Positions 9,644 through 27,525 of a stretch of DNA of 64,000 bases are shown one piece after another. The DNA is taken from positions 9,414 to 73,413 of the forward strand of contig CAIKXD010000028.1 in assembly GCA_903831265.1 (NCBI GenBank). Reading direction: 5' to 3'. Every line of letters begins with the position of its first letter. Positions within the stretch are counted from its first letter, which is position 1. Made by a program: the position numbers and the translations under genes. Source of the DNA: an uncultured Bacteroidota bacterium (GTDB lineage Bacteria; Bacteroidota; Bacteroidia; UBA4408). A model generated the notes under the pieces. It made no database searches and was not told where the DNA came from. It saw only the letters and a program-made list of their open reading frames with translations.

Positions 9644-10954
9644 TTAATTCTTGATAAAAACCTTTCTTTGTTCATTATCTCCTACTCTTAACAGAAGATA
9701 ATAAATTCCATTATTTACATCTGAAATATCAATGCTTTGAACAACATTACCATTGTAATTGCCAAGATTTGTTTCAGCCTTTACTGTATTGCCTAGTGCA
9801 TTATTTATACTATAATAAATATCAGCCGATTCATTAAGCCAAATATTTATATTTAATAAATTATTTGCTGGATTAGGGTAAACAAAAAACCTAAATTTTC
9901 CGAGTGAAAATTCTGGACACACCACAGCAATATCTCTATCATTGCAATAGCCTGGATAACAGCACAAGCTCTGCACATTAAAATTTGCTTTTGCATCATA
10001 ATTACAAGCACTAGTATCCATACATCCTAGCACAATAGGGGTTTTGCATGAATCTGGCGCATCGCAACCATAAACATTTGAGTATTCTATAAAGTTAGCA
10101 TCCCTGCAACCACATAAAAAAGGATAAGATAAAAATGGGCTCAGCTGCTCATCAGCAAACAGCGTATCGTTATTGGCCACATACTTTATTTGTAAAGTTC
10201 CTCCTGTAGGATTAGGAATTTCTACTTCAATATTTAATTTAAAAGAAAGTTCACCTGAAGTAGTTAATTGAGCAATTAAAATTTTATTATCAACAGTATT
10301 TACACCTATTGTTCCGGAGTTTTGAATACCGGCATCATAACTCATAAATTCGCTTCCTTCAACTAAAGAACCAAAAATTGTTGAATCTGTTGTGCCTGTG
10401 GGATCAACAATACCGTTGCTACCCCAATTTGTTAATTGTAAATTATAATTTATTATTCCATCAGCAAGAGTTAAAGGAATGCCCATAGCAGGATTATTGT
10501 TAGCTAGCAGTGCACTATCATTATTGCTACCACCAACAAAAGAACCATTTGTATCTTCTGTTTTTAAAATTCCATGCAAAGTAGATGCAGCATTAGAAAT
10601 TTGTCCAAGGGTTAGCCAACTATCTAAAGCTACAGTATTTTCTTTGAACCTGTTTTTATTAAAGTCTTTGGCAAAAGTTTTACCTTCTATTTTGTGATTG
10701 TAAAAGGTGGTTGTTGTTTTAAAATTTAAAGGATGATATTGATCGCCATAAACGTTTTTCAGCACTGTTCCTTCTTTTAAATCAATATAAATCCTGTAGG
10801 TTATAGATCCAGCATCTAATTGACCACCGATAGTATCAGCAATATCGTTATTATCTGCAATATAATAGGTTTCAACAATTACATTTTCAACCTGCGCTTT
10901 CACCGAAAAGGAGAAGGCTATAATTAATGCTATTAAATTAATTTTTAGTTTCAT
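9644..10954 (-). CDS. T9SS cargo protein (paralog family; conserved N-terminal domain plus Cys-rich module plus C-terminal sorting domain)
   Basis: The start was moved to the internal MKLKINLIALIIAFSFSVKAQ, 8 nt after the receptor stop. The N-terminal domain VIVETYYIADNND...GSITYRIYIDL...NTVALDSWLTLG...GILKTEDTNGS matches the paralogs. A 10-Cys cluster (CGCRDANF...CCYPGYCNDRD) is present. The T9SS C-terminal domain is VYPNPANNLLNINIW...GIYYLLLRVGDNEQRKVFIKN. Confidence 0.8.
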   Translation of the reverse strand: MKLKINLIALIIAFSFSVKAQVENVIVETYYIADNNDIADTIGGQLDAGSITYRIYIDLKEGTVLKNVYGDQYHPLNFKTTTTFYNHKIEGKTFAKDFNKNRFKENTVALDSWLTLGQISNAASTLHGILKTEDTNGSFVGGSNNDSALLANNNPAMGIPLTLADGIINYNLQLTNWGSNGIVDPTGTTDSTIFGSLVEGSEFMSYDAGIQNSGTIGVNTVDNKILIAQLTTSGELSFKLNIEVEIPNPTGGTLQIKYVANNDTLFADEQLSPFLSYPFLCGCRDANFIEYSNVYGCDAPDSCKTPIVLGCMDTSACNYDAKANFNVQSLCCYPGYCNDRDIAVVCPEFSLGKFRFFVYPNPANNLLNINIWLNESADIYYSINNALGNTVKAETNLGNYNGNVVQSIDISDVNNGIYYLLLRVGDNEQRKVFIKN

Positions 10955-10961
10955 TTTATTC

Positions 10962-13900
10962 TTATAGCTTGTATGAAATTGACAAATTATAGTTGGTTCC
11001 AAATCTGTAACGATCAAAGTCTGCAGTAAATCCTTCAGGCAATTGATAAGACCTTCTTACAGGACTATTTAAAATATCTTTAATTGTTACAGTTACAGCG
11101 AATCTCTTTCCTAATTCTTTGGCAATTCTAAAATCTAACATATGTCGCGGTAACTCAAAAACATCGGGAACAAAACCGGGTTGTGATGAAACCACAGCCA
11201 ATCTTGGACCTTGAACATTATAAGCAATTGAAGTTGATAATCTTAAACTATCCATAGTGTAACTAATTATACCATTAATTACATAGGGTGCTTGGCCCGA
11301 CATTTGTCTAGTTAAGGTATCAAATGGCTCTACAACCTTAATATTATTTTTCACATAAATATTATTTTGAATAACTTCTGTTATAGATTGCGCTAAAGTA
11401 AGATTAGCTCTAAATTCTAATCCTTTCATAATTATCTTTCTGCCATCTAATTCAATTCCTTTTACATTAGATTCATTTGCATTTTGCCAACTAAATCCTT
11501 GGGTAGTTTGCACCAATTCAATATGATTAAAGAATTTCTTGTAAAAGAAACTCACAGAAATATTATCGCCATTTTCGAAATAAGATTCTAACCTTAAATC
11601 ATAATTATGAATATCAACAGTTTTAAGGTCGGCATTTCCGAATATGAAATTTCTATACTCATAGTCAAAAATTGTTGTTTCTGTTAACTCTCTTACACTT
11701 GGTCTAGCTATAGTTTTACTATAGTTTACTCTCAAGTTAATAGGGCTTGTTTCTAAATTTCTTAATTTGCAAATCACATTTAGGCTTGGCAATAAATTTG
11801 CTTGATTAATGGCCCCTGGATTTACCATAAACGCATCACCCGGCTGAAATCTTCGTTCATCAAAGGCTTCATATCCTATTGAGTCGAACTTAAATACATC
11901 GGCATAAATATTTGTATATTCTATTCTTGCGCCTGCTGATGCTCTTAAACGAGGAACGATGGTATAATCAAGAAGTGCATAACCTGAGTATATGTTAGTT
12001 CTTCCAATAGTATGATAGGAGTCTAAGTCGACCGCCAAATAAGATTTATTTATGGTCGTTTCTGGCAATCCACTTAAGTTAGTTTGCTCACTAAATTCAT
12101 ATTCAGAAAGATTGAAAAAACCCTGCAAATCTTCATTTTCAAAACCTGAAGCTGTAAAAGGTCCAGCAGAGTAAAAATATTCATACTGACGACTATCGCG
12201 TATGGTATTTAAAAAGCTACCACCAAATTTAAGTTTACGCGCTAAGTTCGGTTTTTCAAACAATGGCACTTCTATTTTAATGTTGGCATCTAGCAAATCT
12301 TCATTTAAATACCTGTAAAATCTACGGATAGGAAAGCCACCACCAATTGCATTTTGATTATTTGGAAGTAGGGCATAAGCTAAGCTTTTAAAATCGGGTG
12401 CCACACTTTTACCATTGGTGTACGATAAATTAAAGTTTAGTTTTGATTTAATAGTTGGAAAGTAATGTTGTGTTTTTGCCTGATAAACCAATTGCCTTCT
12501 TTGCTCATAAAATTGATCTTTTACAACAACATTATTTACCCCATTGGCAGAATCTAAAAAGGTTCTAACATTATTTACACCCAAGAAATTAGGCATAAAT
12601 AAAAATCCAATGGTATGATTGGGATGAACTTTGTAGGTTAATTGCAGCAAGCCACTGAGCCCGTTTGTTTCTTTTGTGGATTGCTGTTTTGCATTTAAAA
12701 TAAATGTTTGCGGCCCATTTACATCTGCAGGAAGCAATCTGTTTATATCCGAAACAGAATCATATTGCACAGCACTTGAATAGCGGAAGCCACCAATAAT
12801 TCCGAGAGGTCTTTTAAAAAGATTTACCTGGTTACCAATGCTAAAGCTTTGGCTAAAATTGAGCGGCGCTACTCTATACTTTGTATCCCAATTGTTTGGC
12901 AATGATTTACCAAATGCTGATGCTTTTGAATTGATGGCCCTGTAGGCTTTATTTCTATTTTCATTGTTTGAATTAAATGTATTTTTAGCAGCATTTACGG
13001 CCTCCAAATCATTAAACTGTCCTTTGTCTAATAAACCCAATTGCACCAAACCTAACTTAAAATAATCATCACTCCAAGGTGTATCTTTATTTACTCCAAT
13101 GGCGTTATAAAAATCTTCCAATCCTAAAACAACTAGCTGCTGATAAACTGTTGGTTCTTCAATAACAGGTTGATATGCCAAATGATCAATATCTCTTAGA
13201 TCACTATCATAACCTAACCATTCTGTTGAACTTCGCTCACTCGATACATATTGTCTAAAAGTACTTTGGCTATTGTAACCCACGGTACTTTCAACATTTA
13301 CCATTAATCTATCAGGAAAATCTTTTGTTTCTAAAGAGATGAGCGCCCCTGAAAAATCGCCTGCTAAATCTGCACTAGCTGTTTTGGTAATAAAAATATT
13401 ATCTAATAAACTAGAAGGAAATAAATCTAATTTAATGTTATTGGTTAAGGGATCCAAAGTAGGAATTACTAAACCATTTATTTGAGTTTTAACATATCTA
13501 TCGCCAATACCACGCACCGTAATAAAGGAACCACTAGATGACACTCCCGAAACTCTTGCAACGGCAGCTGCAGCAGTTGCATCACCTGTTTTTTTGATGG
13601 TTTCTGATGAAACAAAATCTATAGATGTAACAGAGTTTATTTTCATTTTATCAAGGTAGTAATCCTTTGCACGGTTTGCCTTTGCCTCTACTACTAATTC
13701 TTTTATTTCCTTAGTGCTTGATTTTAAGTCAAAATTCTTAATTAATATTTGACCATTTTTTAATGATATATTTTCCTCTACAGTAAGATATCCAATATAA
13801 GAAACAACAACAATTTGTGAAGTACTATCGGGTATTTTTATAGCATAATTTCCATCTAAATCGGTTGATGAGGCTATTAGTTTATTATTTTTTAATACTA

Positions 13901-15198: not shown

Positions 15199-16305
15199 TT
15201 AGTGATTAACAATTAATTTCTTTGAGAAGCTATGAGTTGCATCTTCTATTTTTATAAGATATATTCCCGATTCGATGCCTTGCATAGAAAACTGATATCC
15301 ATCTTTAGAAACTGCACCAACTTTGCGCTGATCTAAAAGCACACCGCGGCTATCATAAAGTGAAATCAAACTGTTTTGCTCCATTTTAATCTTAGGTTTA
15401 ATGGTCAATATTTCATCGGTCAATGGATTGGGAAATATATCAATACCATTATTTTTTTCGAAGATTGCAATATCCTTTAATGAAGAAGGAGTGCTTACAG
15501 AATCGTTTAGCGCTGCCAATAAAATTGAACTAGTATCACCAGGCAAAGCCTCTGCTACATAGCGCTCAACCCCACCCGTAGGTGTACCTATTTGAACATT
15601 TAATTTATATTTTAGGCTACCGTTGGTAGTAATTTGAGCAATCAACACTTTATTTATTGCGCTATCTGCGCCAGTGGCACCAGACAAACAATACCATGAA
15701 CCATTTGTGGTGCTAAAAACTGGACCATTAGTTCCATCATTTTGGCTCCCAAAAACACCAATCTCTGTATCAATACCTATGCTTCCAAAAACACCTGGAT
15801 TACCTAATTGCAAGCCATCTTGTGTATTGATTGGAATGCCGCAGTTAACATCATCGTTTTGTAATACTTGAGGAGTTTCGGCGTTAACAACCGTTGCGTT
15901 GCTATCTGTATCTTCTGTTTTTAACACCCCAAAATTACCAATACACGCAGCGCCAGAAGACAGCCAAGAATCTAGCATCACCGTATTGTCTTTTGCATTA
16001 GCTTTTGTGTAATTAGGTTGAACATCACCTCTGTCTTCATTATTAAAAAATAAAGTTGATGTTTCTATTCTAAGCTCGTGACCCGGCAAACCATAAGCAG
16101 CTTGAAACTTGTAGTTAGGTAATAAATCTAAATAAAATCTATACGTAACAGACCCAACGGGCAGCTTACCTCCTACATCATTTACTGTAGTATCGTTGTT
16201 ATTGGATTTATAATACTTTTCAACGATTAAACCCTCTAATCCGTTTTGGGCTAAACTAATTTTAAGAAATAAAAAAAATAGTAGAATTGTAGCTTTACCT
16301 TTCAT
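15199..16305 (-). CDS. T9SS cargo protein (368 aa) of the 'VEKYY' N-terminal-domain paralog family
   Basis: It is a tandem paralog of 14068..15171 (GLIVEKYYKSNNND...LPVGSVTYRFYLDL...NTVMLDSWLSSG...GVLKTEDTD). The T9SS C-terminal domain is ...IFPNPLTDEILTI...GIYLIKIEDATHSFSKKLIVNH. Confidence 0.85.
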   Translation of the reverse strand: MKGKATILLFFLFLKISLAQNGLEGLIVEKYYKSNNNDTTVNDVGGKLPVGSVTYRFYLDLLPNYKFQAAYGLPGHELRIETSTLFFNNEDRGDVQPNYTKANAKDNTVMLDSWLSSGAACIGNFGVLKTEDTDSNATVVNAETPQVLQNDDVNCGIPINTQDGLQLGNPGVFGSIGIDTEIGVFGSQNDGTNGPVFSTTNGSWYCLSGATGADSAINKVLIAQITTNGSLKYKLNVQIGTPTGGVERYVAEALPGDTSSILLAALNDSVSTPSSLKDIAIFEKNNGIDIFPNPLTDEILTIKPKIKMEQNSLISLYDSRGVLLDQRKVGAVSKDGYQFSMQGIESGIYLIKIEDATHSFSKKLIVNH

Positions 16306-16638
16306 GAAATGCGTTGTTAAATTTGAAAGTGCAAAAGAAGCACTATTGTCGCGTTTGATAGATATATAAATTGTTACTATTACGTTAAAGCTACAAGAAA
16401 AAATTAGCCATACTAAGTGACAAATTATTTATTTAAAAATTAGAGCAAACACATGTATTTCAGACATTTTAAAAACAATTAGGTACTGTTTAAGAAAATG
16501 CAATAAACAACTTAATAACACTAAATTAACCATTTAATTATTTTGATATGTTTTTAGAGGAAATAAATAATTAAAAGTGCACAGTTAAAACTTTACAATT
16601 ACTTAACCCAACTGTACTTTATTGTAATTTTATGGATG

Positions 16639-16646
16639 TAATTTTG
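16639..16646 (+). promoter_or_regulatory. Candidate Bacteroidota sigma-A -7 element (TAATTTTG) upstream of the PIG-L deacetylase gene
   Basis: It matches the TAnnTTTG consensus ~20 nt upstream of the TTG start at 16666. The upstream TTG at 16622-24 has suboptimal spacing. Confidence 0.3.
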
Positions 16647-16665
16647 AGGACTCAAAATTGTTTTC

Positions 16666-17292
16666 TTGAATAAAAAAGTATTAATTATTGCGCCTCATTT
16701 AGATGATGGAAAATTAGGTTGTGGAGGCACTATTACAAAGCTTTTAGACCAAGGCATGTTTATTTATTATGTGGCATTTTCTATTGGCAATATTGTTGAT
16801 GAGCATAATGTTAATGCTAATATTTTGTTAACTGAATGTAAAGATGCATGCAAAACTTTAGGAATTACTGATGATAAATTAATTATTAAACTATTTCCAT
16901 TTAGAAAGCTAAACGAGCACAGGCAAGAAATTCTGGAGATTTTAATTGATTTAAAGCGTAAAATAAACCCTGATATCGTATTTATGCCCTCCAGCCAATC
17001 AATACACCAAGACCACAAAGCTGTATACCAAGAAGGAATTAGAGCATTTAAACACAAAACTTGTTATGGCTATGATTTACCATGGGATACAGATAATTTC
17101 AAAACTTCATGTTTTTTTACTTTAGATAAAAGACAGCTTAACTTAAAAATAGCTTCCCTTAAAATGTATGCTTCATTAAAGCATAAAACCTACATGGAAG
17201 AAAACTTTCTAAAAGGTTTGGCGCGTGTTAGAGGCACTCAAATAAATGTTGAATTTGCAGAAGCATTCGAAGCCATTCGCACTGTAGTTTAA
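16666..17292 (+). CDS. PIG-L/LmbE family N-acetylglucosaminyl deacetylase
   Basis: It has the LIIAPHLDDG...GCGG metal-binding signature and a downstream HQDH motif. It is 208 aa. The apparent start is a TTG; there is no in-frame ATG before the catalytic motif. Confidence 0.8.
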   Translation: MNKKVLIIAPHLDDGKLGCGGTITKLLDQGMFIYYVAFSIGNIVDEHNVNANILLTECKDACKTLGITDDKLIIKLFPFRKLNEHRQEILEILIDLKRKINPDIVFMPSSQSIHQDHKAVYQEGIRAFKHKTCYGYDLPWDTDNFKTSCFFTLDKRQLNLKIASLKMYASLKHKTYMEENFLKGLARVRGTQINVEFAEAFEAIRTVV

Positions 17293-17412
17293 CTTCAAAA
17301 AAACGATCAACCAATCTAGATTTATTTCAATATTAAATTAATGTTAACTACCTGCTTTGCTTTAATAACAATGATTTAACTAGTAAGTAATATTCAAGGA
17401 ATTTTGAGAGTA

Positions 17413-17420
17413 TAGTTTTG
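17413..17420 (+). promoter_or_regulatory. Candidate -7 promoter element (TAGTTTTG) upstream of the 558-aa gene
   Basis: It matches TAnnTTTG 26 nt before the ATG at 17446. No convincing -33 TTG is seen. Confidence 0.25.
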
Positions 17421-17445: not shown

Positions 17446-19122
17446 ATGAAAAAATTCTACACAATTGCAGCAAGCTTGCTTTTTGGTTTTACAAGCCTAC
17501 AAGCACAAAGCATTATTAACATTGTTGATGCCGACTTAGTAGGCGGTCAAACATACAATTGGACCAAAAACAACGTTTATGTTTTAGATGGCGTTGTATT
17601 TCTTGAAGATGGCGGCACTTTAAATATTGAAGCTGGCACAGTAATTAAATTTACCCCTAGAGCTGATGTTGGTAATCCATCTGCATTAGTTATTTGTCGT
17701 GGTGCTAAAATTTACGCAACTGGCACCGTGGCTGAACCAATTATTTTTACAGCAGAAGATGATGACATGGCAGATGGAACTGATTTAGGTCCAACAGACA
17801 ATGCACTTTGGGGTGGTGTTGTATTATTGGGAAAAGCTTTTACCGTAAAAAATGGCAACAATGAAGTAAATGTTGAAGGTATTCCTACAACTGAACCAAG
17901 AGGTGTTTATGGTATGCCAGCTGGAGCAAATATTGACAATGATAACTCAGGTGTTTTACGTTATGTTTCTATACGTCATGGAGGTCGTCAAATTGCGAGT
18001 GGTAGTGAATTAAACGGATTAACCTTAGGTGCTGTGGGTAGCGCTACAACAGTAGAATATGTTGAAATATATGCTAACTCTGATGATGGCATCGAATTTT
18101 TTGGGGGAACAGTAAATGTAAAATATGCTGCTGTTGCATTTACCGAAGATGATAGTTTTGATTGGGATGAAAGTTGGACTGGAAAAGGTCAGTTTTGGTT
18201 CTCTATCCAAAGAGATGATATTGCTGATGCTGGTTGGGAATGCGATGGAAGTACACCTAATGATTTAACACCTGCTTCTGATCCAATTGTATTTAATGGA
18301 ACACATATTGGTTCAGGTGCAGCTGCTGCTGCGGCCAATCCAATTGGATGGTTATTCCGTGCAGGTACTAAAGGCTATGTTGCAAATAGTATTGTAAGCG
18401 AAATGAAAGGTAAAGGAATTGAAGTTCAAGATAGCCCTTCAAATAGCAATGATGCTTATGCTCAATTAATCGCAGGAGAATTAATTATCAAAAACAATTT
18501 ATTCCACAATATTGGAAGTACAACAGTAATTGATGGAAGTGCTAATGGCATAATCAGAATCACTGCAAGTGCCGATGATGCAACTGCTGCGGCTTTAATT
18601 TCTCACTTAACTACAAACAGCAATCAAATAGCTAATCCTGCCCTTTATAATGTTAGCAGAACTCAAGATGGTTTGCTAGACCCACGCCCAAGTGGAACTG
18701 GAGCAGCTTATACAACTGCTTTAGACGCTTATCCTGCAGGTGATGCTTTCTTTACAGCAGTTAATTACAAAGGTGCTTTTTCAACTGCGTCAACCGACTT
18801 ATGGCTATCTAGCTGGTCGAGTTTAGCCAAAAACGGACATTTAGTAAATGTTACTGGGATCAATGAATATAACAATGTTGTAAATTCATTAATGCTATAT
18901 CCAAATCCAACCAAAGGAAATTTAAATATCGCTTACGAGTCAAATAAAAATGTATTGGTTCAAATTATCAATACACAAGGGCAAGTGGTAAAAACATTAA
19001 ACAACAAACCTTCAGTTGGTGCACCACAAACAGTGGATGTTTCTGACTTAAGTAAAGGATTGTATTTCATAAGCTTTACAAACGGTGATAATCAATTCAG
19101 TAAGAAATTAATTATTGAATAA
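17446..19122 (+). CDS. Secreted 558-aa T9SS cargo protein, paralog of 6617..8284 (unnamed TonB-dependent-receptor-associated family)
   Basis: Signal peptide ...TSLQAQ. It shares conserved blocks with the 555-aa paralog (see that entry). The T9SS C-terminal domain is LYPNPTKGNLNIAYES...GLYFISFTNGDNQFSKKLIIE. Confidence 0.85.
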   Translation: MKKFYTIAASLLFGFTSLQAQSIINIVDADLVGGQTYNWTKNNVYVLDGVVFLEDGGTLNIEAGTVIKFTPRADVGNPSALVICRGAKIYATGTVAEPIIFTAEDDDMADGTDLGPTDNALWGGVVLLGKAFTVKNGNNEVNVEGIPTTEPRGVYGMPAGANIDNDNSGVLRYVSIRHGGRQIASGSELNGLTLGAVGSATTVEYVEIYANSDDGIEFFGGTVNVKYAAVAFTEDDSFDWDESWTGKGQFWFSIQRDDIADAGWECDGSTPNDLTPASDPIVFNGTHIGSGAAAAAANPIGWLFRAGTKGYVANSIVSEMKGKGIEVQDSPSNSNDAYAQLIAGELIIKNNLFHNIGSTTVIDGSANGIIRITASADDATAAALISHLTTNSNQIANPALYNVSRTQDGLLDPRPSGTGAAYTTALDAYPAGDAFFTAVNYKGAFSTASTDLWLSSWSSLAKNGHLVNVTGINEYNNVVNSLMLYPNPTKGNLNIAYESNKNVLVQIINTQGQVVKTLNNKPSVGAPQTVDVSDLSKGLYFISFTNGDNQFSKKLIIE

Positions 19123-19141
19123 AAACAAATAACATAATCAG

Positions 19142-19180
19142 AAATAGCAGGGGGCAAACGTCTCCTGCTATTTGTGTTTA
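19142..19180 (+). terminator. Hairpin (aaatagcagg...cctgctattt) followed by a partial T-run; possible terminator/attenuator between the 558-aa gene and the receptor gene
   Basis: It has a 10-bp perfect stem and a 12-nt loop, followed by GTGTTTAAC. It sits in the 89-nt gap before the receptor gene on the same strand. Confidence 0.4.
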
Positions 19181-19211
19181 ACAGACTGGCTAAAACAACT
19201 ACACAATTAAA

Positions 19212-22200
19212 ATGAAAAATTACTGCTTTAAATCACTTTTATTTACATTCTTTTTACTGCAAATTAGTGCACATGTTTACTCACAAAACGGAAATATATC
19301 TGGTAAAATAATTGACAAATTAACCGGTGAAGAAATCATTGGAGCTGTTGTAAAAATAGACAGCACAAATACTGCTACTTCAACTGATTTAAGTGGCAAC
19401 TACAATTTAAAAGTACCCGCAGGCAACCATACAATTGTATGCAACTTTATAAGTTACAGAAAAATTATTGTAAAAAATGTATCAGTTAAAGCAGGAGAAA
19501 GCATCACACTTGATTTTACTTTAGAATCTGATAATGTAGAAATTAAAGAAGTAGTAATTGAAGCTGTGCAACAAAGAAACACAGATGCATCTTTAATCTC
19601 CATTCAAAAAAAATCATTCGCTGTGCAAGATGGTATTTCGGCACAACAAATGGCACGCACGGGCAGCAGCAATGCTGCAGAATCAATGAAACAAATGACT
19701 GGCGCCAATGTAGAAGATGGCAAATTTATGGTAATGCGCGGGCTAGGCGATAGATATTCTATTGCACAATTAAACGGACTTCCAATTCCAAGTAGTGACC
19801 CTTATCGCAATGCATCTAGTTTAGATTTAATTCCTTCATCATTTGTTGACAATATTGTTACCACAAAAACCTTTACGCCAGATCAACCGGGCAATTTTGC
19901 AGGAGGAAATTTAAATATTAGCACTAAAAGTTTTCCTGAAAAACCTTATGTAACTGTAAACATTTCACAATCAATGAATACGCTTTCTTCTATGAATGGC
20001 GATTTTCTTAGTTATCAAGGTGGAAGCACAGACTGGAGAGGAGTTGATGATGATACTAGAAAAGTACCTTTGATTGCTTTAAATGATTCGATCAGAGATA
20101 TGATTAATTCAAGTTTATACCTTGATGCACGCAAAAAAAGCAAAGACTTTGAAATAGAAAGACAACTGTTTAATAGCTCGGCTAAAGTTTTTAGCAATGA
20201 ATTTATTGCAGAAAAAACTGGTGAAGCAAATAACGAAAGCGGTGTGGGATATCAATTAAGGCAAGCATTTGGTTTAAATAATAATTATAATAAAACCCCC
20301 TTAAACAACAACTACAGCCTTGCAGCTGGACAAAGGTATGTGATTGGAAAAACCGAAATTGGGATGACAATTGGAGGAAATTATCAAAGAAATTTTACAC
20401 ATTATAACGATGGAGAAATAAATACCTTCATCAACACCAATACCGAAAAATTATTTGCGTACCAAGCACTTAAAGAAACTAAAAGTATTGATAATCCTCA
20501 ACTTGGAGGACTAGCTAATTTAGCAGTAAAGATTGCTAAAAAACACACAATCGGTATAACTGGTATTTACAGCAATGATGCAGAAAAAGTTGCACGTCAG
20601 CAATCTGGTACTTTTATGGGACAAGTATCAGATTCACGCGCTCAATTTAATACCAATGTATTAGAATTTACACAAAGAGAATTAAAGACACTTGTTGTTA
20701 ATGGAAGCCACAGTTTTAAACTATTAAATGGTTTAGATATCGATTGGTCGGCAAGTAATACCAATACACGCCAATACGAGCCAGATTTGCGTTATTTTGC
20801 TTATACCTCTGTTAAAGATACTGCCGATTCGGTTGGTGCAAATGGTGATTTAGTAAGATACCTCGATACTGCTTATTACATGAACAATGCTGAGTTTGCA
20901 TTTCCATATCACTTTTATAGAGATTTAAAAGATAGTCAACAACAAGCAAAAATTGATTTTACATTAAACATTAATAAGTCGCAAAGCTTTAAAATAAAGT
21001 GGGGTGGATATTACAGTTCAACTAAAAGAAAATTCGAGGAGTATCGCTTTCAAATGAACAACTCGGGCATTCAATCTTCACAAAAGTTATTGTTAGATAA
21101 TTACAATGGCGATTTAAATGCATTTTTAGATAGTGATAATTTTGGCATTACCGATACAACTAGAAACTCGCAAGGTGCTATCACAAGATATGCTACAGGC
21201 TGGCATTACATCAATCAAGTTAACAACAGAAACTTTTATACGGGCCAACAAGATATTACTGCAGCCTACGCCATGACAGTATTTTCACCACTTAAAAATT
21301 TAAAAATAATTACAGGTGCGCGCATCGAAAGTACCAACTTAAATGTAGCAAGCCGCGATACAAATGCCATATTTTATTCAATTAATGGCGATAGTATTAT
21401 CGATCCAGGTAAGCTAAAATTATTAGATCTTTTACCATCTATAAATACTGTTTATGCTTTAACCGAAAAATCTAACTTAAGATTGGCATTTAGTCAAACA
21501 ATTGCACGTCCAAACATGAGAGAATTAGCTCCTTTCGAGCAGTTTGATACAAAAAATGGTTTTTACAACGTGGGTAATCCAGGCTTAAAAAGAACCTTAA
21601 TTAATAACTTCGATATTCGTTATGAGTTTTACACACGTCCTGGAGAAATAATTGCCGTAAGTGCTTACTATAAAACCTTTAAAGATCCTATCATTAGAGC
21701 ATTTAATCCTAAGGCAACTATACCAGAGCTTAGCTTTGTAAATGTTGATAAAGCAGAAGTATTAGGTGCCGAATTCGAATTCAGAAAAAGCTTAGATTTT
21801 ATTTCCCCTTTCTTGCACGATTTTTACATAAATACCAACTTAACTTTAATCAATTCTCGTGTTGATATTCCAGTAAAAGAAATTGAAAATTCTAAAAATG
21901 TTGACTCAACTTATGCTGTAGAAAGCCGCCCGTTTCAAGGACAAGCGCCTTACATTGTAAATGCTATTTTAACCTATGCCAATCCTAAAATTGGTCACGA
22001 AAGTTCACTATCATTCAACGTATCTGGACCAAAATTATACAGCATTTCATTATTTGCCACGCCCGATATTTATGAATCACCAGTGCCATTTTTAAATTTT
22101 AAAACCACTCAAAATGTGGGTAAATACTGGCAATTTTCGCTAGTTATGCGCAATTTATTAAACGCAAAAGTGTCTAAAACGCAAGTTTACCGTGGCCAAA

Positions 22201-22268
22201 CCTATTATGCCGAAACATTTCAAATTGGAAGAACATTTGGCTTAGGAGTAAGCTTTAAAATCAAATAA
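19212..22268 (+). CDS. TonB-dependent outer-membrane receptor (1018 aa) with an N-terminal CarboxypepD_reg-like domain
   Basis: Signal peptide, then GKIIDKLTGEEIIGAVVKIDST...TDLSGNYNL. A plug region follows (MKQMTGANVEDGKFMVMRGLGDRYS...LNGLPIP) and then a C-terminal barrel (...GRTFGLGVSFKIK). It is a paralog of 10962..14021. Confidence 0.9.
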   Translation: MKNYCFKSLLFTFFLLQISAHVYSQNGNISGKIIDKLTGEEIIGAVVKIDSTNTATSTDLSGNYNLKVPAGNHTIVCNFISYRKIIVKNVSVKAGESITLDFTLESDNVEIKEVVIEAVQQRNTDASLISIQKKSFAVQDGISAQQMARTGSSNAAESMKQMTGANVEDGKFMVMRGLGDRYSIAQLNGLPIPSSDPYRNASSLDLIPSSFVDNIVTTKTFTPDQPGNFAGGNLNISTKSFPEKPYVTVNISQSMNTLSSMNGDFLSYQGGSTDWRGVDDDTRKVPLIALNDSIRDMINSSLYLDARKKSKDFEIERQLFNSSAKVFSNEFIAEKTGEANNESGVGYQLRQAFGLNNNYNKTPLNNNYSLAAGQRYVIGKTEIGMTIGGNYQRNFTHYNDGEINTFINTNTEKLFAYQALKETKSIDNPQLGGLANLAVKIAKKHTIGITGIYSNDAEKVARQQSGTFMGQVSDSRAQFNTNVLEFTQRELKTLVVNGSHSFKLLNGLDIDWSASNTNTRQYEPDLRYFAYTSVKDTADSVGANGDLVRYLDTAYYMNNAEFAFPYHFYRDLKDSQQQAKIDFTLNINKSQSFKIKWGGYYSSTKRKFEEYRFQMNNSGIQSSQKLLLDNYNGDLNAFLDSDNFGITDTTRNSQGAITRYATGWHYINQVNNRNFYTGQQDITAAYAMTVFSPLKNLKIITGARIESTNLNVASRDTNAIFYSINGDSIIDPGKLKLLDLLPSINTVYALTEKSNLRLAFSQTIARPNMRELAPFEQFDTKNGFYNVGNPGLKRTLINNFDIRYEFYTRPGEIIAVSAYYKTFKDPIIRAFNPKATIPELSFVNVDKAEVLGAEFEFRKSLDFISPFLHDFYINTNLTLINSRVDIPVKEIENSKNVDSTYAVESRPFQGQAPYIVNAILTYANPKIGHESSLSFNVSGPKLYSISLFATPDIYESPVPFLNFKTTQNVGKYWQFSLVMRNLLNAKVSKTQVYRGQTYYAETFQIGRTFGLGVSFKIK

Positions 22269-22365: not shown

Positions 22366-22779
22366 TATTGCAAATCAATTAACACAACACAATAAATATT
22401 CTGGCGCGAGTCATCTGAGACTTGTGCCTATTCAAATTATACCAGCACAAGTCTTCAGGCTCATATACCCATTACATTTTCAATTTAGTCCAATTGCGGC
22501 CAAGCCTTATTGTACTAGTTTCAAGTTGTATCGGCATTAACCATTGTAAATTTATTAAACAGCTTTGGGCTATTTAATAAATACAATCGGTATTATACCA
22601 TTACTTGCGTAAAATTAGTCCAATCCGTTTCTTCTACAATGCACATAGAGTAGCTCTTATGGCGTAATTCATTGAACTATTTCAGTAAACACATAGGTAT
22701 TAATTTGCAATTAAAAAAATAGACCTAATTTATTCCCTAATTTTTAGTATTTTTGAGAATCAAAACTTATTTAACCCAA

Positions 22780-24024
22780 ATGAAAAAAATATTTACACTA
22801 GTATTGCTAGCATTAGCATTTGAAAATTCAAATGCACAAAATTGTATCGAAAACACCAATAGCATTAGCTTTGATGGTTTTAGCACGAGTGCTACATCTA
22901 GCAGTCAAAGCAACCTGAATATTACCGATTCCATTACTGTAGAAGCATGGATCAATCCAAATTCCTTTGGCTTTAATTCGGCTCAAAACTCTATTGTTTG
23001 CAAACACGGATGGAGCAGTGGCGAAGGTGGCTTTGTATTACGCTGTGGTGGTTCTGGTGAATTAGCTTTTAATATTGCTGGCCTTGATATCAATCAAAAT
23101 CCAACAAGTTGGAAAGAAGTATTTACACCAACTAACGCTTTAACACTTAATACCTGGACTCATGTTGCTGGTTCATACGATGGTCAAAATTTAAGGGTGT
23201 TTGTTAATGGTGTTGAACAAAATATTGCACCTTTTGCAGGAAGTATTGCAAATTCGCAAAATTATCCAATAACCTTAGGCAAACTAAGCGACCCTAACCA
23301 GTTTGCTCAACGCTTCTTCGATGGAAAAATGGATGAAGTACGCATTTGGCACCGTGCGCTAACAGCCAATGAATTAATGGCTAATATGAATAAACATATT
23401 GATCCTACAACAGCAGTTAACTTAGTTTCTTATTGGCGTTTTAATGAAGGTACAGGAAATACTAGTATTGACTTACAAAGTACAAACGATTTAACCGTTA
23501 ATGGTAATAATTGGGATATTTCGGTTCCTTTTAATCAAGTTCCTCCTACCCCTGTAATTTCTTTTAATGGCTTTGAATTAATTGCATCAACCACAGGTGG
23601 AAATTGGTATTTAAATGGCAACATAATTCCTAATGCTATTGATAGCAATTATACACCTGCAGTAAATGGTGATTATACTTTTACAACCAATCCAAATAGC
23701 GATGGATGCACCAATACTAGTTTAATTTACACTCTAACAAGTGTGGGTATGCAAAATCTAAATTTCAATATCACGGCAAATGTTTTCCCTAATCCAATAA
23801 TAGATGAAGCAACACTTGCAGTAAATTCAAATGTAATATTAAACAATAGCATTTTGGTTATTACCGATATCGCAGGTCGAAAAGTTTATGCTGAAAATAC
23901 CGCTTTAAAACAAGGCTTAAATCAAGTAAAGATTTCCAAAAACAACTTAAATTCAGGCGTCTATTTTTACGAAATTTTAAATAATAGCCAAAGTTTAACC
24001 AAAGGCAAATTGATGTTAAAATAA
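22780..24024 (+). CDS. LamG-like (concanavalin A-like lectin/glucanase) jellyroll domain protein, T9SS cargo
   Basis: Laminin_G_3-type motifs are present: ITDSITVEAWINPNSF, NTWTHVAGSYDGQNLRVFVNGVEQ, GKMDEVRIWHRALTANEL. The T9SS C-terminal domain is VFPNPIIDEATL...GVYFYEILNNSQSLTKGKLMLK. The likely start is MKKIF at 22780; the ORF opens at 22753. Confidence 0.8.
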   Translation: MKKIFTLVLLALAFENSNAQNCIENTNSISFDGFSTSATSSSQSNLNITDSITVEAWINPNSFGFNSAQNSIVCKHGWSSGEGGFVLRCGGSGELAFNIAGLDINQNPTSWKEVFTPTNALTLNTWTHVAGSYDGQNLRVFVNGVEQNIAPFAGSIANSQNYPITLGKLSDPNQFAQRFFDGKMDEVRIWHRALTANELMANMNKHIDPTTAVNLVSYWRFNEGTGNTSIDLQSTNDLTVNGNNWDISVPFNQVPPTPVISFNGFELIASTTGGNWYLNGNIIPNAIDSNYTPAVNGDYTFTTNPNSDGCTNTSLIYTLTSVGMQNLNFNITANVFPNPIIDEATLAVNSNVILNNSILVITDIAGRKVYAENTALKQGLNQVKISKNNLNSGVYFYEILNNSQSLTKGKLMLK

Positions 24025-26230: not shown

Positions 26231-26232
26231 TT

Positions 26233-27525
26233 TTACCTCAGTTTATTTTTAAATTTTTCAAAAACTAATTTTACATCTGCTTTATTTGGAAGTAATTGAT
26301 GCGCTTTCCAGTGGTGCTCTTTTAAAAACAAACGTACAAAATAAATCATTGCCACTATGGCGCTGGCACTTATGATGAAGCCTGGCAATAGTATTGATGA
26401 AGTTTTTAAATAAAGTATCCCAGCAAAAATAGAAACAGCCAATGATAGAAATCCTACCGCTGCATTTATTTTAAACTTACCTAATCCCGAATAATAATGA
26501 CTAATTACCTGGCTAATACTGTTTGCTAATGCACCTGGAATAAGTGTAAGAATTATAATTTTAATTCCGCTAAAATCTTTTCCAAAGATAGTACTCATTA
26601 AAGTTTCGGGAAAAACACTTAATACAAAAAGGATCACAAATGATATAAGTAACGATAACTTAATTAGTTTAAGGGCAGTGCTTGCGGCTTTTAATTTATC
26701 GGTTTCATTAGATACAGTGCTTGCCGTAATTAAAGCCACGCTGCTACTAAATAACATAGCAGCCTCAGTGATAGATAACGCTGTGCTTAACACACCTACA
26801 AAAGCCAACGATAAAAAGTGACTCGAAAAATAAAAGGTAACTCTGCTGCTCATTAAATGTGTTAAGCTAGCCAACTGCGTAAGTATGCCGTTGTTAAATA
26901 AAATTTTAAGCGTTGGTTTTTGAGTTATATTTTCATCATTTTTCCATACAAAAGAAGTATATTTTAATCCTAATAAAAATGCAGCAGCATAAGCAATAAG
27001 CAAGGCGTAGAAATAACTTTGAATTTGGTATTGCTTTTGAAAAATGAAGCTCATAAAAACTAAAAATAATATTACACTTTGGATTAAAGCAATGCTATTA
27101 AAAGCTTTTATTTTTTGATGGCCAAGTAAAATAAATTGATGAATGGAACCTAAACAGAGCATCAAGCTGCACGCAGCAACCAATGGAAAAAACTGAACAT
27201 CATAAAAGTTAAATAGACCTAAAAGCAAACTCGATAAAACACTTATAACTACCGCCCACAAGTAAGCGTATTTTGCAATACTACTATTGTTGAAACGTGG
27301 CACAAGATATACCACTGCCGGGCCACCAATAATTTCGTTAATTAAACCAGCAATAGCAACGGCTAACATACACAAACTAATACTTCCCCTTATTTCTGCG
27401 CCCATTAATTTGGCGGTAATTATAATAATAGCAAAGTTCAAAACAGACACTATTATCCTTGTGAAAAAAGTGCCCGTAATATTTTTTAGCATGCGTTTTT
27501 GTTGTGATAAATAATAATAACGCAA
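26233..27525 (-). CDS. Oligosaccharide flippase (Wzx/MOP superfamily) polytopic membrane protein
   Basis: It is a 430-aa hydrophobic protein with ~12 predicted TM segments. The N-terminal region is typical of polysaccharide biosynthesis/MATE-like flippases. Confidence 0.65.
   Translation of the reverse strand: MRYYYLSQQKRMLKNITGTFFTRIIVSVLNFAIIIITAKLMGAEIRGSISLCMLAVAIAGLINEIIGGPAVVYLVPRFNNSSIAKYAYLWAVVISVLSSLLLGLFNFYDVQFFPLVAACSLMLCLGSIHQFILLGHQKIKAFNSIALIQSVILFLVFMSFIFQKQYQIQSYFYALLIAYAAAFLLGLKYTSFVWKNDENITQKPTLKILFNNGILTQLASLTHLMSSRVTFYFSSHFLSLAFVGVLSTALSITEAAMLFSSSVALITASTVSNETDKLKAASTALKLIKLSLLISFVILFVLSVFPETLMSTIFGKDFSGIKIIILTLIPGALANSISQVISHYYSGLGKFKINAAVGFLSLAVSIFAGILYLKTSSILLPGFIISASAIVAMIYFVRLFLKEHHWKAHQLLPNKADVKLVFEKFKNKLR

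What the first reader, a model, noticed from the sequence alone, without database searches (positions are those of the whole stretch)
16306..17292. PIG-L/LmbE deacetylase at the hinge of the divergent receptor modules, with an apparent TTG start and a TAATTTTG -7 box
A GlcNAc-type deacetylase of the PIG-L family (APHLDDG...HQDH) is the first gene of the plus-strand module. It is followed by the 558-aa cargo and the receptor.

This family deacetylates N-acetylglucosaminyl conjugates, for example diacetylchitobiose, bacillithiol or mycothiol precursors, and antibiotic intermediates.

Its placement hints that the substrate of the locus carries an N-acetyl-hexosamine moiety.

The shared 360-bp control region carries a consensus-like Bacteroidota -7 element 19 nt before the TTG.
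Basis: partly seen in the sequence, partly recalled or inferred. Interest (0 to 1): 0.55.

Follow-up and report, generated by a model that had tools for sequence, protein, structure and literature searches.

The report
Stand-alone sugar deacetylase gene between receptor operons
This is a real, intact gene for a zinc-type sugar de-N-acetylase with an unusual but conserved TTG start and its own promoter, and it looks like an enzyme borrowed from surface-sugar synthesis, so it says little about what the neighbouring receptors import.

Summary
ORF 16666-17292 (+) encodes a 208-aa PIG-L/LmbE protein: Pfam 70 bits, AF2 pLDDT 93, TM 0.75-0.84 to LmbE-fold structures, and intact H11/D13/D14 and H114-Q-D-H117 motifs. 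TTG is the only possible start. It is kept in five diverged orthologous loci. TAATTTTG (16639-16646) lies 19 nt upstream and is conserved at 19-20 nt while the flanks diverge.

- **Not BshB:** the score is 56 bits against a 182.5 cutoff. No characterised clade is close.
- **Not the first gene of an operon:** the 558-aa gene has its own conserved promoter (TAGTTTTG, 17413-17420).
- **Biosynthetic relatives:** homologues at 50-56% identity, and relatives at 27%, all sit in surface-polysaccharide biosynthesis clusters (WecB-PIG-L-GNAT-WbqC; formyltransferase-PIG-L-PglD).
- **Lineage-specific link:** the hinge clade is one monophyletic offshoot. More distant beta-helix/TonB-receptor pairs lack the gene.

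The "HexNAc substrate" inference is therefore weak.

There is one point in its favour. All three promoters carry the same TAAC-N7-TAAC direct repeat 31-33 nt upstream of the -7 box, which suggests co-regulation.

Verdict: an ordinary new member of an uncharacterised LmbE subfamily, in a neat regulatory setting.

The parts
16666..17292 (+). PIG-L/LmbE-family de-N-acetylase CDS, 208 aa, cytoplasmic (no signal peptide).
   Evidence: ORF. PF02585 scores 70 bits. AF2 pLDDT is 92.9 with an LmbE fold. dN/dS is 0.085 and 0.078 in two unsaturated pairs.
16666..16668 (+). TTG start codon.
   Evidence: It is the only canonical start after the in-frame stop at 16648-16650 and before the catalytic H11. TTG is kept at the same position in L001, L003, L017 and L018, and is present in L019. 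Homologues are 206-215 aa and align over the full length.
16639..16646 (+). Bacteroidota-type -7 promoter box TAATTTTG of the PIG-L gene.
   Evidence: It lies 19 nt before the TTG. TAnnTTTG is conserved at 19-20 nt in six loci (window, L001, L003, L017, L018, L019) although the flanks diverge, and at 5 nt before an ATG start in L020.
16593..16607 (+). Direct-repeat element TTACAATTACTTAAC (TTAC-N7-TAAC, 11-bp period), 31 nt upstream of the PIG-L -7 box. It is a putative response-regulator site.
   Evidence: TWACAATNNNTTAAC occurs twice in the window against 0.11 expected. It is kept at the same offset in L001, L003, L017, L019 and L020.
16516..16530 (+). Additional exact TAAC-N7-TAAC repeat in the shared intergenic region.
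   Evidence: Found. The block ATAACAtTAAaTTAAc is conserved in all six aligned loci.
16373..16387 (-). TAAC-N7-TAAC repeat of the minus-strand operon promoter.
   Evidence: The composite TAAC-N7-TAAC-N30..34-TWNNTTTG occurs twice in the window against 0.01 expected. The 33-nt offset is conserved in L001, L003 and L017.
16332..16339 (-). Variant -7 box TTCTTTTG of the divergent 368-aa gene, 26 nt before its ATG at 16305.
   Evidence: The block GTGCAAAxGAAG is conserved in alignment A1.
17330..17347 (+). Repeat ATATTAA-N4-ATGTTAA. This is the same TAAC repeat read on the other strand, upstream of the 558-aa gene.
   Evidence: ATGTTAA-N4-ATGTTAA is invariant or nearly so in L001, L003, L017, L018 and L019.
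17366..17380 (+). TAACAATGATTTAAC direct repeat, 32 nt upstream of the -7 box of the 558-aa gene.
   Evidence: The distant locus L021, which has no PIG-L gene, has the same architecture: TAACAATTTCGTAAC, then 32 nt, then AACATTTG.
17413..17420 (+). -7 box TAGTTTTG. This is the separate promoter of the 558-aa cargo / TonB-receptor operon.
   Evidence: It lies 25 nt before the ATG at 17446. It is conserved at 23-26 nt in L001, L003, L017, L018, L019 and L020.
17446..19122 (+). 558-aa secreted beta-helix protein with a T9SS C-terminal sorting domain (context, not part of the deacetylase).
   Evidence: Por_Secre_tail domain. Beta_helix_4 in precomputed Pfam. AF2 gives a beta-helix at pLDDT 87. No PDB match reaches E<=1e-3.
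19212..22268 (+). 1018-aa TonB-dependent receptor (context).
   Evidence: Plug, TonB_dep_Rec_b-barrel and CarboxypepD_reg domains. TIGR01782 scores 237 bits, below its 310 cutoff.
15199..16305 (-). 368-aa T9SS-CTD protein, first gene of the divergent minus-strand module (context).

Best explanation
The ORF is a functional, cytoplasmic, metal-dependent de-N-acetylase with the LmbE/PIG-L fold.

**Transcription and translation.** It is translated from a conserved TTG. It is transcribed from its own Bacteroidota-type promoter, the -7 box at 16639-16646. That implies a leader of roughly 13-15 nt (inferred; the transcription start is not mapped).

**Family.** It belongs to a large, biochemically uncharacterised subfamily of proteins about 210 aa long. 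The other members of this subfamily lie inside surface-polysaccharide (O-antigen or capsule type) gene clusters. There they sit next to a non-hydrolysing UDP-GlcNAc 2-epimerase (WecB), a GNAT N-acyltransferase and a WbqC-family protein.

**Most likely chemistry (inferred).** The enzyme removes the N-acetyl group from a nucleotide- or lipid-linked HexNAc intermediate, such as ManNAc or GlcNAc. The free amine is then either left exposed or re-acylated.

**Position in this lineage.** One copy became fixed as a single-gene transcription unit between two divergent T9SS-cargo/TonB-receptor operons. It is not part of either operon. Its promoter does carry the same 11-bp-period direct repeat, at the same offset, as both operon promoters. 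It is therefore probably switched on together with them by one response-regulator-type factor (inferred).

**Consequence.** Its presence says little about what the receptors import.
For: **Identity**
- PF02585 scores 70 bits.
- AF2 gives pLDDT 92.9 and pTM 0.90.
- Foldseek gives TM 0.75-0.84 to BC1534, diacetylchitobiose deacetylases, TT1542 and BshB.
- H11, D13, H114, Q115, D116 and H117 are invariant across 50 homologues, and D14 is at least 90% conserved. These match the His13/Asp16/His147 zinc site of MshB, with Asp15 as the general base from general knowledge of MshB (PMC4101496).

**The gene is functional**
- dN/dS is 0.085 (window vs L001) and 0.078 (L003 vs L019). Its neighbours give 0.05-0.09.

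**Start codon and promoter**
-.

**Separate unit**
- The downstream gene has its own conserved -7 box and upstream elements.

**Biosynthetic ancestry**
- Relatives at 50-56% identity (P0010, P0022, P0079) lie in clusters holding PIG-L, GNAT, WbqC, AsnB-like amidotransferases, flippases and glycosyltransferases; two of the three (P0010, P0079) also have WecB directly upstream.
- WecB scores 267-292 bits, above its cutoff.
- Relatives at 27% identity in Kordia and Chryseobacterium sit between a formyltransferase-like gene and PglD/DegT genes, next to initiating sugar transferases.
- The hinge clade (window plus P0001-P0009) is monophyletic in 29 of 30 NJ bootstraps and is nested inside this family.

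**The link to the modules is lineage-specific**
- The beta-helix protein has more than 7,000 homologues.
- Pairs at 69% and 60% identity (L021, L022/L023) lack the small PIG-L gene.
- The pair at 79% identity (L020) has it.

**Shared cis-element**
-.
Against: - The partner genes of the biosynthetic module (WecB, GNAT, WbqC) are absent from the 64-kb window. The proposed pathway has no visible partners here.
- An AsnB-like amidotransferase and a flippase-like gene lie 7 kb downstream. They are not syntenic in relatives.
- The gene has kept its hinge position in every context that could be seen: five hinge-clade PIG-L look-ups that yielded DNA (six loci; L001 and L002 both carry P0001), one further without DNA (P0005), plus L020 found through the beta-helix protein. 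It also shares a regulatory element with the uptake modules. Both points fit a role tied to those modules.
- The window protein departs from the family consensus at 10 of about 75 positions that are at least 90% conserved, including E16K. The L018 orthologue has D14N at the predicted zinc ligand. Substrate or activity may therefore have changed.
- No member of this subfamily has been characterised biochemically. The held literature has nothing on WbqC function.
- Only five non-hinge contexts were sampled.
Confidence: 0.5

Rival explanations
1. Catabolic role. The enzyme deacetylates an N-acetyl-hexosamine-bearing substrate, such as chitooligosaccharide, that the T9SS-secreted proteins capture and the TonB receptors import. 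This would resemble the archaeal diacetylchitobiose deacetylase route.
For: - The best sequence matches in the PDB are diacetylchitobiose deacetylases. The single protein gives E 2e-10 and 44 bits. The family profile gives 58 bits. Foldseek TM is 0.80.
- The hinge position is conserved in all close relatives.
- The gene shares a direct-repeat promoter element with both modules.
- The receptors score best against the TonB-Xanth-Caul subfamily TIGR01782. From general knowledge, that subfamily includes carbohydrate importers.
Against: - The margin over BshB1 (53 bits), TT1542 (45 bits) and BC1534 (45 bits) is small, and identity is only about 25%.
- The locus has no inner-membrane transporter, glucosaminidase, GH18/GH20, NagA/NagB, kinase or SusD.
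- Beta-helix/receptor pairs in other lineages work without this gene.
- All sampled out-group relatives are biosynthetic.
- The beta-helix cargo has no specific structural relative that points to HexNAc.
Confidence: 0.2
2. Glycan-anchor or glycan-decoration role for T9SS cargo. The enzyme de-N-acetylates a surface-glycan sugar onto which T9SS cargo is attached, or which decorates that cargo. It would be a functional analogue of the putative CE4 deacetylase VimE in the Porphyromonas Wbp/Vim linking-sugar pathway.
For: - Seven T9SS-CTD proteins are encoded between 2.7 and 24 kb around the gene.
- The subfamily is biosynthetic and is often clustered with AsnB-like amidotransferases. WbpS of the Wbp/Vim pathway is such an enzyme (PMC7468200).
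- An AsnB-like gene lies at 24242-26230.
- Co-regulation with the cargo operons is plausible.
Against: - VimE belongs to carbohydrate esterase family 4, not to the LmbE fold. There is no homology.
- No Wbp or VimA genes are in the window.
- The AsnB neighbour is not conserved in relatives.
- The support is analogy only.
Confidence: 0.1
3. Housekeeping low-molecular-weight-thiol enzyme. The protein would be bacillithiol BshB or a related deacetylase, expressed independently of the locus.
For: - The only NCBIfam hits are BshB1 and BshB2.
- JGI auto-annotation names some homologues "N-acetylglucosamine malate deacetylase 1".
- The fold matches BshB structures.
Against: - The scores are far below the equivalog cutoffs: 56.4 against 182.5, and 39.6 against 195.25.
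- Identity to BshB structures is 22-24%.
- The family profile is no closer to BshB than to other clades.
- Relatives sit in polysaccharide clusters, not with bshA or bshC.
Confidence: 0.03
4. A relic under relaxed or altered constraint. The gene would be left over from a former polysaccharide cluster. It would persist between the two operons with reduced or non-catalytic function.
For: - The window protein departs at 10 positions that are invariant in the family, including E16K. L018 has D14N at the predicted zinc ligand.
- At long range it diverges far more than the adjacent cargo and receptor. Against L018 it is 58% identical, while they are 90-91%.
- Its biosynthetic partners are absent from the window.
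Against: - dN/dS of about 0.08 equals that of its neighbours.
- The ORF, the TTG start and the promoter are intact in all seven loci.
- The remaining catalytic residues are invariant.
- The minus-strand proteins diverge about as fast: T9_457 57-60%, FISUMP 65%, TBDR_1019 67-68%.
Confidence: 0.07

Closest known systems
LmbE-like / PIG-L metallohydrolase superfamily (Pfam PF02585, CAZy CE14): MshB, BshB, TT1542, archaeal diacetylchitobiose deacetylase, teicoplanin Orf2*.
   Same: - Pfam domain above the gathering score.
- Rossmann-like alpha/beta fold with TM 0.75-0.84.
- H-x-D-D and H-x-D-H motifs aligned with the known zinc-binding and catalytic residues.
   Different: - Only 13-26% identical to any solved member.
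- Shorter, at 208 aa, than Dac (about 270 aa) or MshB (about 300 aa).
- The first motif reads PH(x)DDG(E/K) rather than AHPDDE (the latter from general knowledge of the family).
- The family profile is about equally distant from Dac, BshB1, TT1542 and BC1534, at 45-58 bits. It belongs to none of the characterised clades.
Uncharacterised ~210-aa PIG-L subfamily of polysaccharide biosynthesis clusters (WecB - PIG-L - GNAT - WbqC module in Bacteroidota and other metagenomic lineages).
   Same: - 50-56% identity over the full length.
- The window protein nests inside this family in the tree.
- Same length and same conserved motifs.
- 308 cluster representatives score E<=1e-30.
   Different: - In the window the gene is solitary, with its own promoter, between T9SS/TonB-receptor operons.
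- The WecB, GNAT and WbqC partners are absent from the 64-kb window.
- Several positions invariant in the family are changed.
VimE of the Porphyromonas gingivalis Wbp/Vim linking-sugar pathway.
   Same: It is a proposed cytoplasmic sugar de-N-acetylase that serves surface attachment of T9SS cargo and works alongside an AsnB-like amidotransferase (PMC7468200).
   Different: VimE is a CE4 polysaccharide-deacetylase-fold protein and has no homology to LmbE. No Vim or Wbp genes are present here. The resemblance is functional analogy only.
Bacteroidota polysaccharide utilisation loci (SusC/SusD type).
   Same: A TonB-dependent receptor with an N-terminal carboxypeptidase-regulatory-like domain sits next to surface or secreted proteins, under a dedicated regulator-type promoter element.
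   Different: - No SusD gene.
- The SusC/RagA model TIGR04056 matches only the N-terminal 100 aa, at 52 bits against a 368 cutoff.
- No glycoside hydrolases.
- The partner proteins use T9SS sorting domains rather than lipoprotein signals.

Membership tests
LmbE-like / PIG-L superfamily | Match to the PIG-L domain model above the curated threshold. | tested here: met
   PF02585 gives E 3.1e-19 and 70.2 bits against a 28.2 cutoff, covering residues 6-127 and model positions 1-128 of 129.
LmbE-like / PIG-L superfamily | Single alpha/beta domain with a lactate-dehydrogenase-like Rossmann core plus a C-terminal beta-alpha-alpha-beta unit. | tested here: met
   The AF2 model has pLDDT 92.9. Foldseek gives probability 1.00 and TM 0.75-0.84 to 2ixd, 8bgo, 1uan and 6p2t. 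The fold is described in PMC4101496.
LmbE-like / PIG-L superfamily | Zinc-binding His / Asp / His triad (MshB His13, Asp16, His147) and a general-base Asp. | tested here: met
   H11, D13, H114, D116 and H117 are invariant in 50 homologues, and D14 is at least 90% conserved. The correspondence to MshB residues rests on motif alignment. Metal binding itself was not tested.
LmbE-like / PIG-L superfamily | Hydrolysis of an N-acetyl group from a GlcNAc-type substrate. | not testable with these tools
   This needs an enzyme assay. The superfamily also contains non-deacetylases, such as the hydratase GalB (5cgz, seen).
Bacillithiol deacetylase BshB1 / BshB2 | Score above the NCBIfam equivalog cutoff. 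| tested here: not met
   TIGR04001 scores 56.4 bits against 182.5. TIGR04000 scores 39.6 bits against 195.25.
Bacillithiol deacetylase BshB1 / BshB2 | Genomic association with bshA or bshC, or a housekeeping context. | tested here: not met
   No such genes are in the window or in any of the 12 relatives' contexts examined.
Diacetylchitobiose deacetylase (Dac) of the archaeal chitin pathway | Close sequence relationship over the full length. | tested here: not met
   Identity is 25-26%. The sequence match for the single protein covers only residues 3-125. The margin over other clades is small.
Diacetylchitobiose deacetylase (Dac) of the archaeal chitin pathway | Co-location with chitin-catabolic partners (glucosaminidase, chitinase, sugar transporter). 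| tested here: not met
   None were found among the window ORFs scanned.
Polysaccharide-cluster PIG-L subfamily (WecB-PIG-L-GNAT-WbqC) | Full-length similarity and placement inside the family tree. | tested here: met
   Identity is 50-56% at 98-100% coverage. The hinge clade is nested in the family with 29 of 30 bootstraps supporting its monophyly.
Polysaccharide-cluster PIG-L subfamily (WecB-PIG-L-GNAT-WbqC) | Adjacent WecB, GNAT and WbqC genes. | tested here: not met
   They are absent from the window. GNAT and WbqC are present next to P0010, P0022 and P0079; WecB is directly upstream of P0010 and P0079 only.
Bacteroidota housekeeping-sigma promoter | -7 element TAnnTTTG a short distance upstream of the gene. 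| tested here: met
   The box is at 16639-16646. It is conserved in seven loci. The motif is enriched 2.6-fold in non-coding DNA.
Bacteroidota housekeeping-sigma promoter | -33 element (TTTG/TTG) about 19-21 bp upstream of the -7 box. | tested here: inconclusive
   By eye, no conserved TTTG was seen at that spacing in the aligned promoters. No dedicated scan was run. The conserved upstream element is instead the TAAC-N7-TAAC repeat.
Bacteroidota housekeeping-sigma promoter | A mapped transcription start site. | not testable with these tools
   This needs 5'-RACE or dRNA-seq.
SusC/SusD polysaccharide utilisation locus | A SusC/RagA-type receptor paired with a SusD-family lipoprotein. | tested here: not met
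   TIGR04056 scores 52 bits against a 368 cutoff, on the N-terminus only. No neighbour matches SusD.

The most novel reading that the evidence does not exclude
A biosynthesis-type sugar de-N-acetylase was recruited from O-antigen-like clusters into a regulon controlled by a response regulator. The regulon comprises two T9SS-cargo/TonB-receptor operons. Once there, the enzyme acquired a module-linked job, which could be one of two things.

- It could prepare an amine-bearing sugar to which the co-induced T9SS cargo is anchored. That would make it an LmbE-fold analogue of the CE4 enzyme VimE.
- It could process an amino sugar that the receptors import.

Either reading would mean that three separate transcription units are wired together by one TAAC-N7-TAAC element placed 31-33 nt from each -7 box.
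Probability: 0.12. Interest if true: 0.6.

Novelty: new member of a known kind. Interest (0 to 1): 0.3.

Why it matters
**For annotation.** Gene position alone is a poor guide to the substrate of a Bacteroidota receptor locus. Here the enzyme's relatives are biosynthetic, and the receptor pair exists widely without it.

**Start-site evidence.** The case gives a clean comparative example of a conserved TTG start with a very short leader behind a Bacteroidota -7 box. It also exposes mis-called starts in public gene calls (L019).

**Open lead on the enzyme family.** The ~210-aa PIG-L subfamily has 308 representatives at E<=1e-30. Its WecB-PIG-L-GNAT-WbqC module has no assigned chemistry in the literature that was searchable.

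**Open lead on the receptor locus.** The shared direct-repeat element offers a handle on the regulation of a very widespread module of unknown function: a beta-helix protein with more than 7,000 homologues paired with a TonB receptor.

Tried and rejected
- **BshB or MshB identity.** Rejected on NCBIfam scores and on profile distances.
- **VimE homology.** Rejected. The paper states that VimE is CE4.
- **Operon with the 558-aa gene.** Not supported, because that gene has its own conserved promoter. No terminator was found either, and folding of the 3' region gave z-scores of +0.24 to -1.35. Read-through therefore stays open.
- **Significance of the -7 box from motif counts alone.** Rejected. 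The window has 96 matches against 123 expected. The support comes from conservation instead.
- **"PIG-L is the fastest-evolving gene of the locus."** Softened. It is far more divergent than the adjacent cargo and receptor. However, T9_457, FISUMP and TBDR_1019 diverge similarly, and omega in close pairs equals that of the neighbours.
- **Genome-contig scan with the single protein.** It returned only relatives at 27-28% identity, so no taxonomic placement was possible.
- **Metagenome-contig scan with the beta-helix alignment.** A large neighbourhood count was therefore not possible.
- **Cluster look-up.** It gave no organism names.
- **Literature searches.** Searches for WbqC, and for LmbE with O-antigen or nonulosonic acids, found no functional study of this module.
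- **Response regulator.** None was found in the window.
- **Foldseek of the beta-helix cargo.** It gave only generic beta-helix matches, so it did not identify a substrate.
Full report
**1. What is in the sequence**

The ORF at 16666-17292 (+) encodes 208 aa and is listed with a TTG start. Both quoted motifs are present: APHLDDG at residues 9-15 and HQDH at residues 114-117.

The in-frame translation upstream shows stops that end at 16650. Between that stop and the catalytic histidine, TTG at 16666 is the only canonical start. The first in-frame ATG is codon 31, which would remove the metal-binding motif.

The intergenic region 16306-16665 is 360 bp with 24% GC. TAATTTTG lies at 16639-16646, 19 nt before the TTG.

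- **Minus strand:** two paralogous T9SS-CTD proteins of about 367 aa, a 1019-aa TonB-dependent receptor, a third T9SS protein, a FISUMP-domain protein and a 555-aa beta-helix protein.
- **Plus strand:** a 558-aa beta-helix T9SS protein, a 1018-aa TonB-dependent receptor and a LamG/T9SS protein.

**2. Family membership**

- Pfam PF02585 scores 70 bits against a cutoff of 28.
- An AlphaFold2 model built on 50 homologues has pLDDT 92.9.
- The model superposes on BC1534, archaeal diacetylchitobiose deacetylases, TT1542 and BshB with TM 0.75-0.84, but at only 20-26% identity.
- H11, D13, H114, Q115, D116 and H117 are invariant in the family, and D14 is nearly so. These correspond to the MshB zinc ligands His13, Asp16 and His147; Asp15 as the general base is taken from general knowledge of MshB (PMC4101496).
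- BshB1 and BshB2 equivalog models score 56 and 40 bits against cutoffs of 182.5 and 195.
- A profile of the family is about equally distant from Dac (58 bits), BshB1 (53), TT1542 (45) and BC1534 (45).

[quoted passage not shown] An exhaustive search finds 308 cluster representatives at E<=1e-30, almost all 195-215 aa and aligned end to end.

**3. Start codon and promoter**

In five orthologous loci (window, L001, L003, L017, L018) the gene starts with TTG at the same alignment position. In L019 the public call uses a GTG inside the promoter box, but the same TTG is present 21 nt downstream.

TAnnTTTG is conserved 19-20 nt upstream of that TTG in all six of these loci (five called at the TTG, plus L019's in-frame TTG). 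The surrounding bases are not conserved, and the proteins are only 58-63% identical.

One motif occurrence would not be significant on counts alone (96 against 123 expected). Two further observations add weight:
- The motif is 2.6-fold enriched in non-coding DNA.
- It sits 4-39 nt before the starts of several other first genes in the window.

In L020 the box is only 5 nt before an ATG start, which suggests a nearly leaderless transcript there.

A mapped transcription start is still missing.

**4. Not the first gene of an operon**

The 153-bp spacer before the 558-aa gene is better conserved than the PIG-L promoter region. It contains the following elements:
- its own -7 box (TAGTTTTG, 17413-17420, 25 nt before the ATG, conserved at 23-26 nt in L001, L003, L017, L018, L019 and L020);
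- a conserved TAATATTCAAGGAATTT block;
- direct repeats.

No intrinsic terminator is detectable after the PIG-L gene, so read-through is possible. Even so, the cargo/receptor operon clearly has an independent promoter.

**5. Where the relatives live**

Every homologue of at least 58% identity whose context could be read sits at the same hinge. These are P0001, P0004, P0005, P0006, P0008 and P0009, plus L020 found through the beta-helix protein.

In the hinge loci that extend that far downstream (L003, L017, L018, L020 and the P0005 contig), the genes beyond the receptor differ: OmpA, LamG, diacylglycerol kinase, or AsnB in the window.

Homologues at 50-56% identity (P0010, P0022, P0079) lie in long polysaccharide gene clusters. 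Their core is PIG-L - GNAT - WbqC, with a WecB-type 2-epimerase directly upstream in two of the three (P0010, P0079; above the equivalog cutoff). They also carry AsnB-like amidotransferases, flippases, a Wzy polymerase (P0010 cluster) and many glycosyltransferases.

Relatives at 27% identity in Kordia and Chryseobacterium also sit in glycan clusters. There the gene lies between a formyltransferase-like gene and PglD-like and DegT genes, next to initiating sugar transferases.

A neighbour-joining tree of 122 sequences makes the hinge clade monophyletic in 29 of 30 bootstraps. The clade is nested within the polysaccharide-type family.

The inference is that the ancestral and prevailing role of the subfamily is de-N-acetylation of an amino-sugar intermediate during glycan biosynthesis, typically followed by re-acylation. 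The hinge copy is a derived, lineage-specific placement.

**6. Is it tied to the receptor modules?**

*Evidence against an obligatory tie:*
- The beta-helix protein has more than 7,000 homologues.
- At 69% identity (L021) and 60% identity (L022, L023) it is still followed by the 1018-aa-type receptor, but the small PIG-L gene and the divergent module are absent.
- The locus contains no inner-membrane sugar transporter, glycoside hydrolase, amino-sugar kinase or deaminase, and no SusD.
- The protein is cytoplasmic.
- The beta-helix cargo model (pLDDT 87) has no PDB relative at E<=1e-3. It gives only generic beta-helix matches, so it does not indicate a HexNAc substrate.

*Evidence for a tie:*
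- The same element lies a fixed distance upstream of each of the three promoters. It is TAAC-N7-TAAC, an 11-bp-period direct repeat.

| Promoter | Repeat position | Offset to -7 box |
|---|---|---|
| Minus operon | 16373-16387 (-) | 33 nt, to TTCTTTTG |
| PIG-L | 16593-16607 (+), first half-site TTAC | 31 nt |
| Cargo operon | 17366-17380 (+) | 32 nt |

- The composite pattern occurs twice in the window against 0.01 expected.
- The 15-mer TWACAATNNNTTAAC occurs only at the PIG-L and cargo promoters, twice against 0.11 expected.
- The offsets are conserved in the relatives.
- They are also conserved in L021, which lacks PIG-L: TAACAATTTCGTAAC, then 32 nt, then AACATTTG.

From general knowledge, tandem 7+4-bp repeats are typical of OmpR/PhoB-family response regulators. 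L022 and L023 have two such regulators and a histidine kinase flanking the pair. None is encoded in the window.

Co-regulation of the deacetylase with both modules is therefore plausible, but it remains an inference.

**7. Selective state**

dN/dS is 0.085 (window vs L001) and 0.078 (L003 vs L019). The neighbours give 0.05-0.09. The gene is therefore under purifying selection.

At longer range it is much more divergent than the adjacent cargo and receptor: 58-63% against 83-91%. It is comparable with the faster minus-strand proteins.

The window protein departs from the family consensus at 10 of about 75 strongly conserved positions, including E16K. L018 has D14N at the predicted zinc ligand. 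This hints at altered specificity or some relaxation in the hinge clade.

**8. Conclusion**

- **Shown:** a real PIG-L/LmbE gene with a conserved TTG start and a conserved -7 promoter; an independent promoter for the downstream operon; an origin within a biosynthetic subfamily; a lineage-restricted association with the receptor modules; and a shared upstream repeat.
- **Inferred:** the substrate class (a nucleotide- or lipid-linked HexNAc), the short leader, and co-regulation.

Overall, the finding is a new member of a known enzyme superfamily, in an uncharacterised subfamily. Interest is modest. The added value is the regulatory architecture and the uncharacterised WecB-PIG-L-GNAT-WbqC module.

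Noticed in passing
window 16373-16387(-), 16516-16530(+), 16593-16607(+), 17330-17347(+), 17366-17380(+): An 11-bp-period direct repeat, TAAC-N7-TAAC, lies 31-33 nt upstream of the -7 box of three separate promoters: the minus operon, the PIG-L gene and the cargo/receptor operon. It is conserved in relatives, including L021. It looks like a response-regulator (OmpR/PhoB-type) site. No regulator gene is in the window, but L022 and L023 have such regulators flanking the homologous gene pair.
   Followed up: partly
window 17446-22268; loci L020-L023: The 558-aa beta-helix T9SS protein and the 1018-aa TonB receptor form a very widespread and highly conserved pair. The beta-helix protein has more than 7,000 homologues at E<=1e-10, many at 58-91% identity. 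Its confident AF2 beta-helix model has no PDB relative at E<=1e-3. The function of the pair is unknown.
   Followed up: partly
window 2729-6586(-): A 1285-aa T9SS protein has a weak hit to the purple-acid-phosphatase N-terminal domain. It also shares a region of about 250-320 aa, at 40-44% identity, with the L001/L003/L017-L019 orthologues of the 367/368-aa T9SS proteins of the minus module. This may hint at a phosphorus-related rather than amino-sugar-related role for the region.
   Followed up: no
window 24242-27525(-): An AsnB-like amidotransferase (662 aa) and a flippase-like membrane protein (430 aa) lie just beyond the plus module. The same gene families accompany the PIG-L relatives in polysaccharide clusters. 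The pair is not conserved next to the locus in relatives, so it could be either a remnant or a coincidence.
   Followed up: partly
window 22748-22780: The listed TTG start of the LamG/T9SS gene (22753) overlaps a TATTTTTG box at 22748-22755. The likely true start is the ATG at 22780 (MKKIFTLV...), 24 nt after the box.
   Followed up: partly
L019 5437-5460 and 6185-6226: The public gene calls for the PIG-L orthologue (215 aa, GTG start) and the beta-helix orthologue (571 aa) begin inside or upstream of the conserved promoter boxes. The starts conserved in the other loci lie 21 nt and 39 nt further downstream.
   Followed up: yes
L018 10001-10624 (protein P0009): This hinge-clade orthologue has Asn in place of the second Asp of the H-x-D-D motif (HLDNG). 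That residue is the predicted zinc ligand. The ORF, the TTG start and the promoter are nevertheless intact.
   Followed up: partly
L020 9199-9214: In this relative the -7 box is only 5 nt from an ATG start of the PIG-L gene. That implies a leaderless or nearly leaderless mRNA, in contrast to the 19-20 nt spacing elsewhere.
   Followed up: partly
L021 5353-7830(-): An unrelated 825-aa protein with a PIG-L domain lies beside a sodium:solute symporter, two genes from a beta-helix/receptor pair that lacks the small PIG-L gene. This is probably coincidental but was not examined.
   Followed up: no
window 9644-11017(-): The listed 457-aa ORF overlaps the end of the receptor gene by 56 nt. Relatives are called at 435-448 aa, and the signal peptide starts at MKLKINLIAL. 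The true start is therefore probably 21 codons downstream.
   Followed up: no
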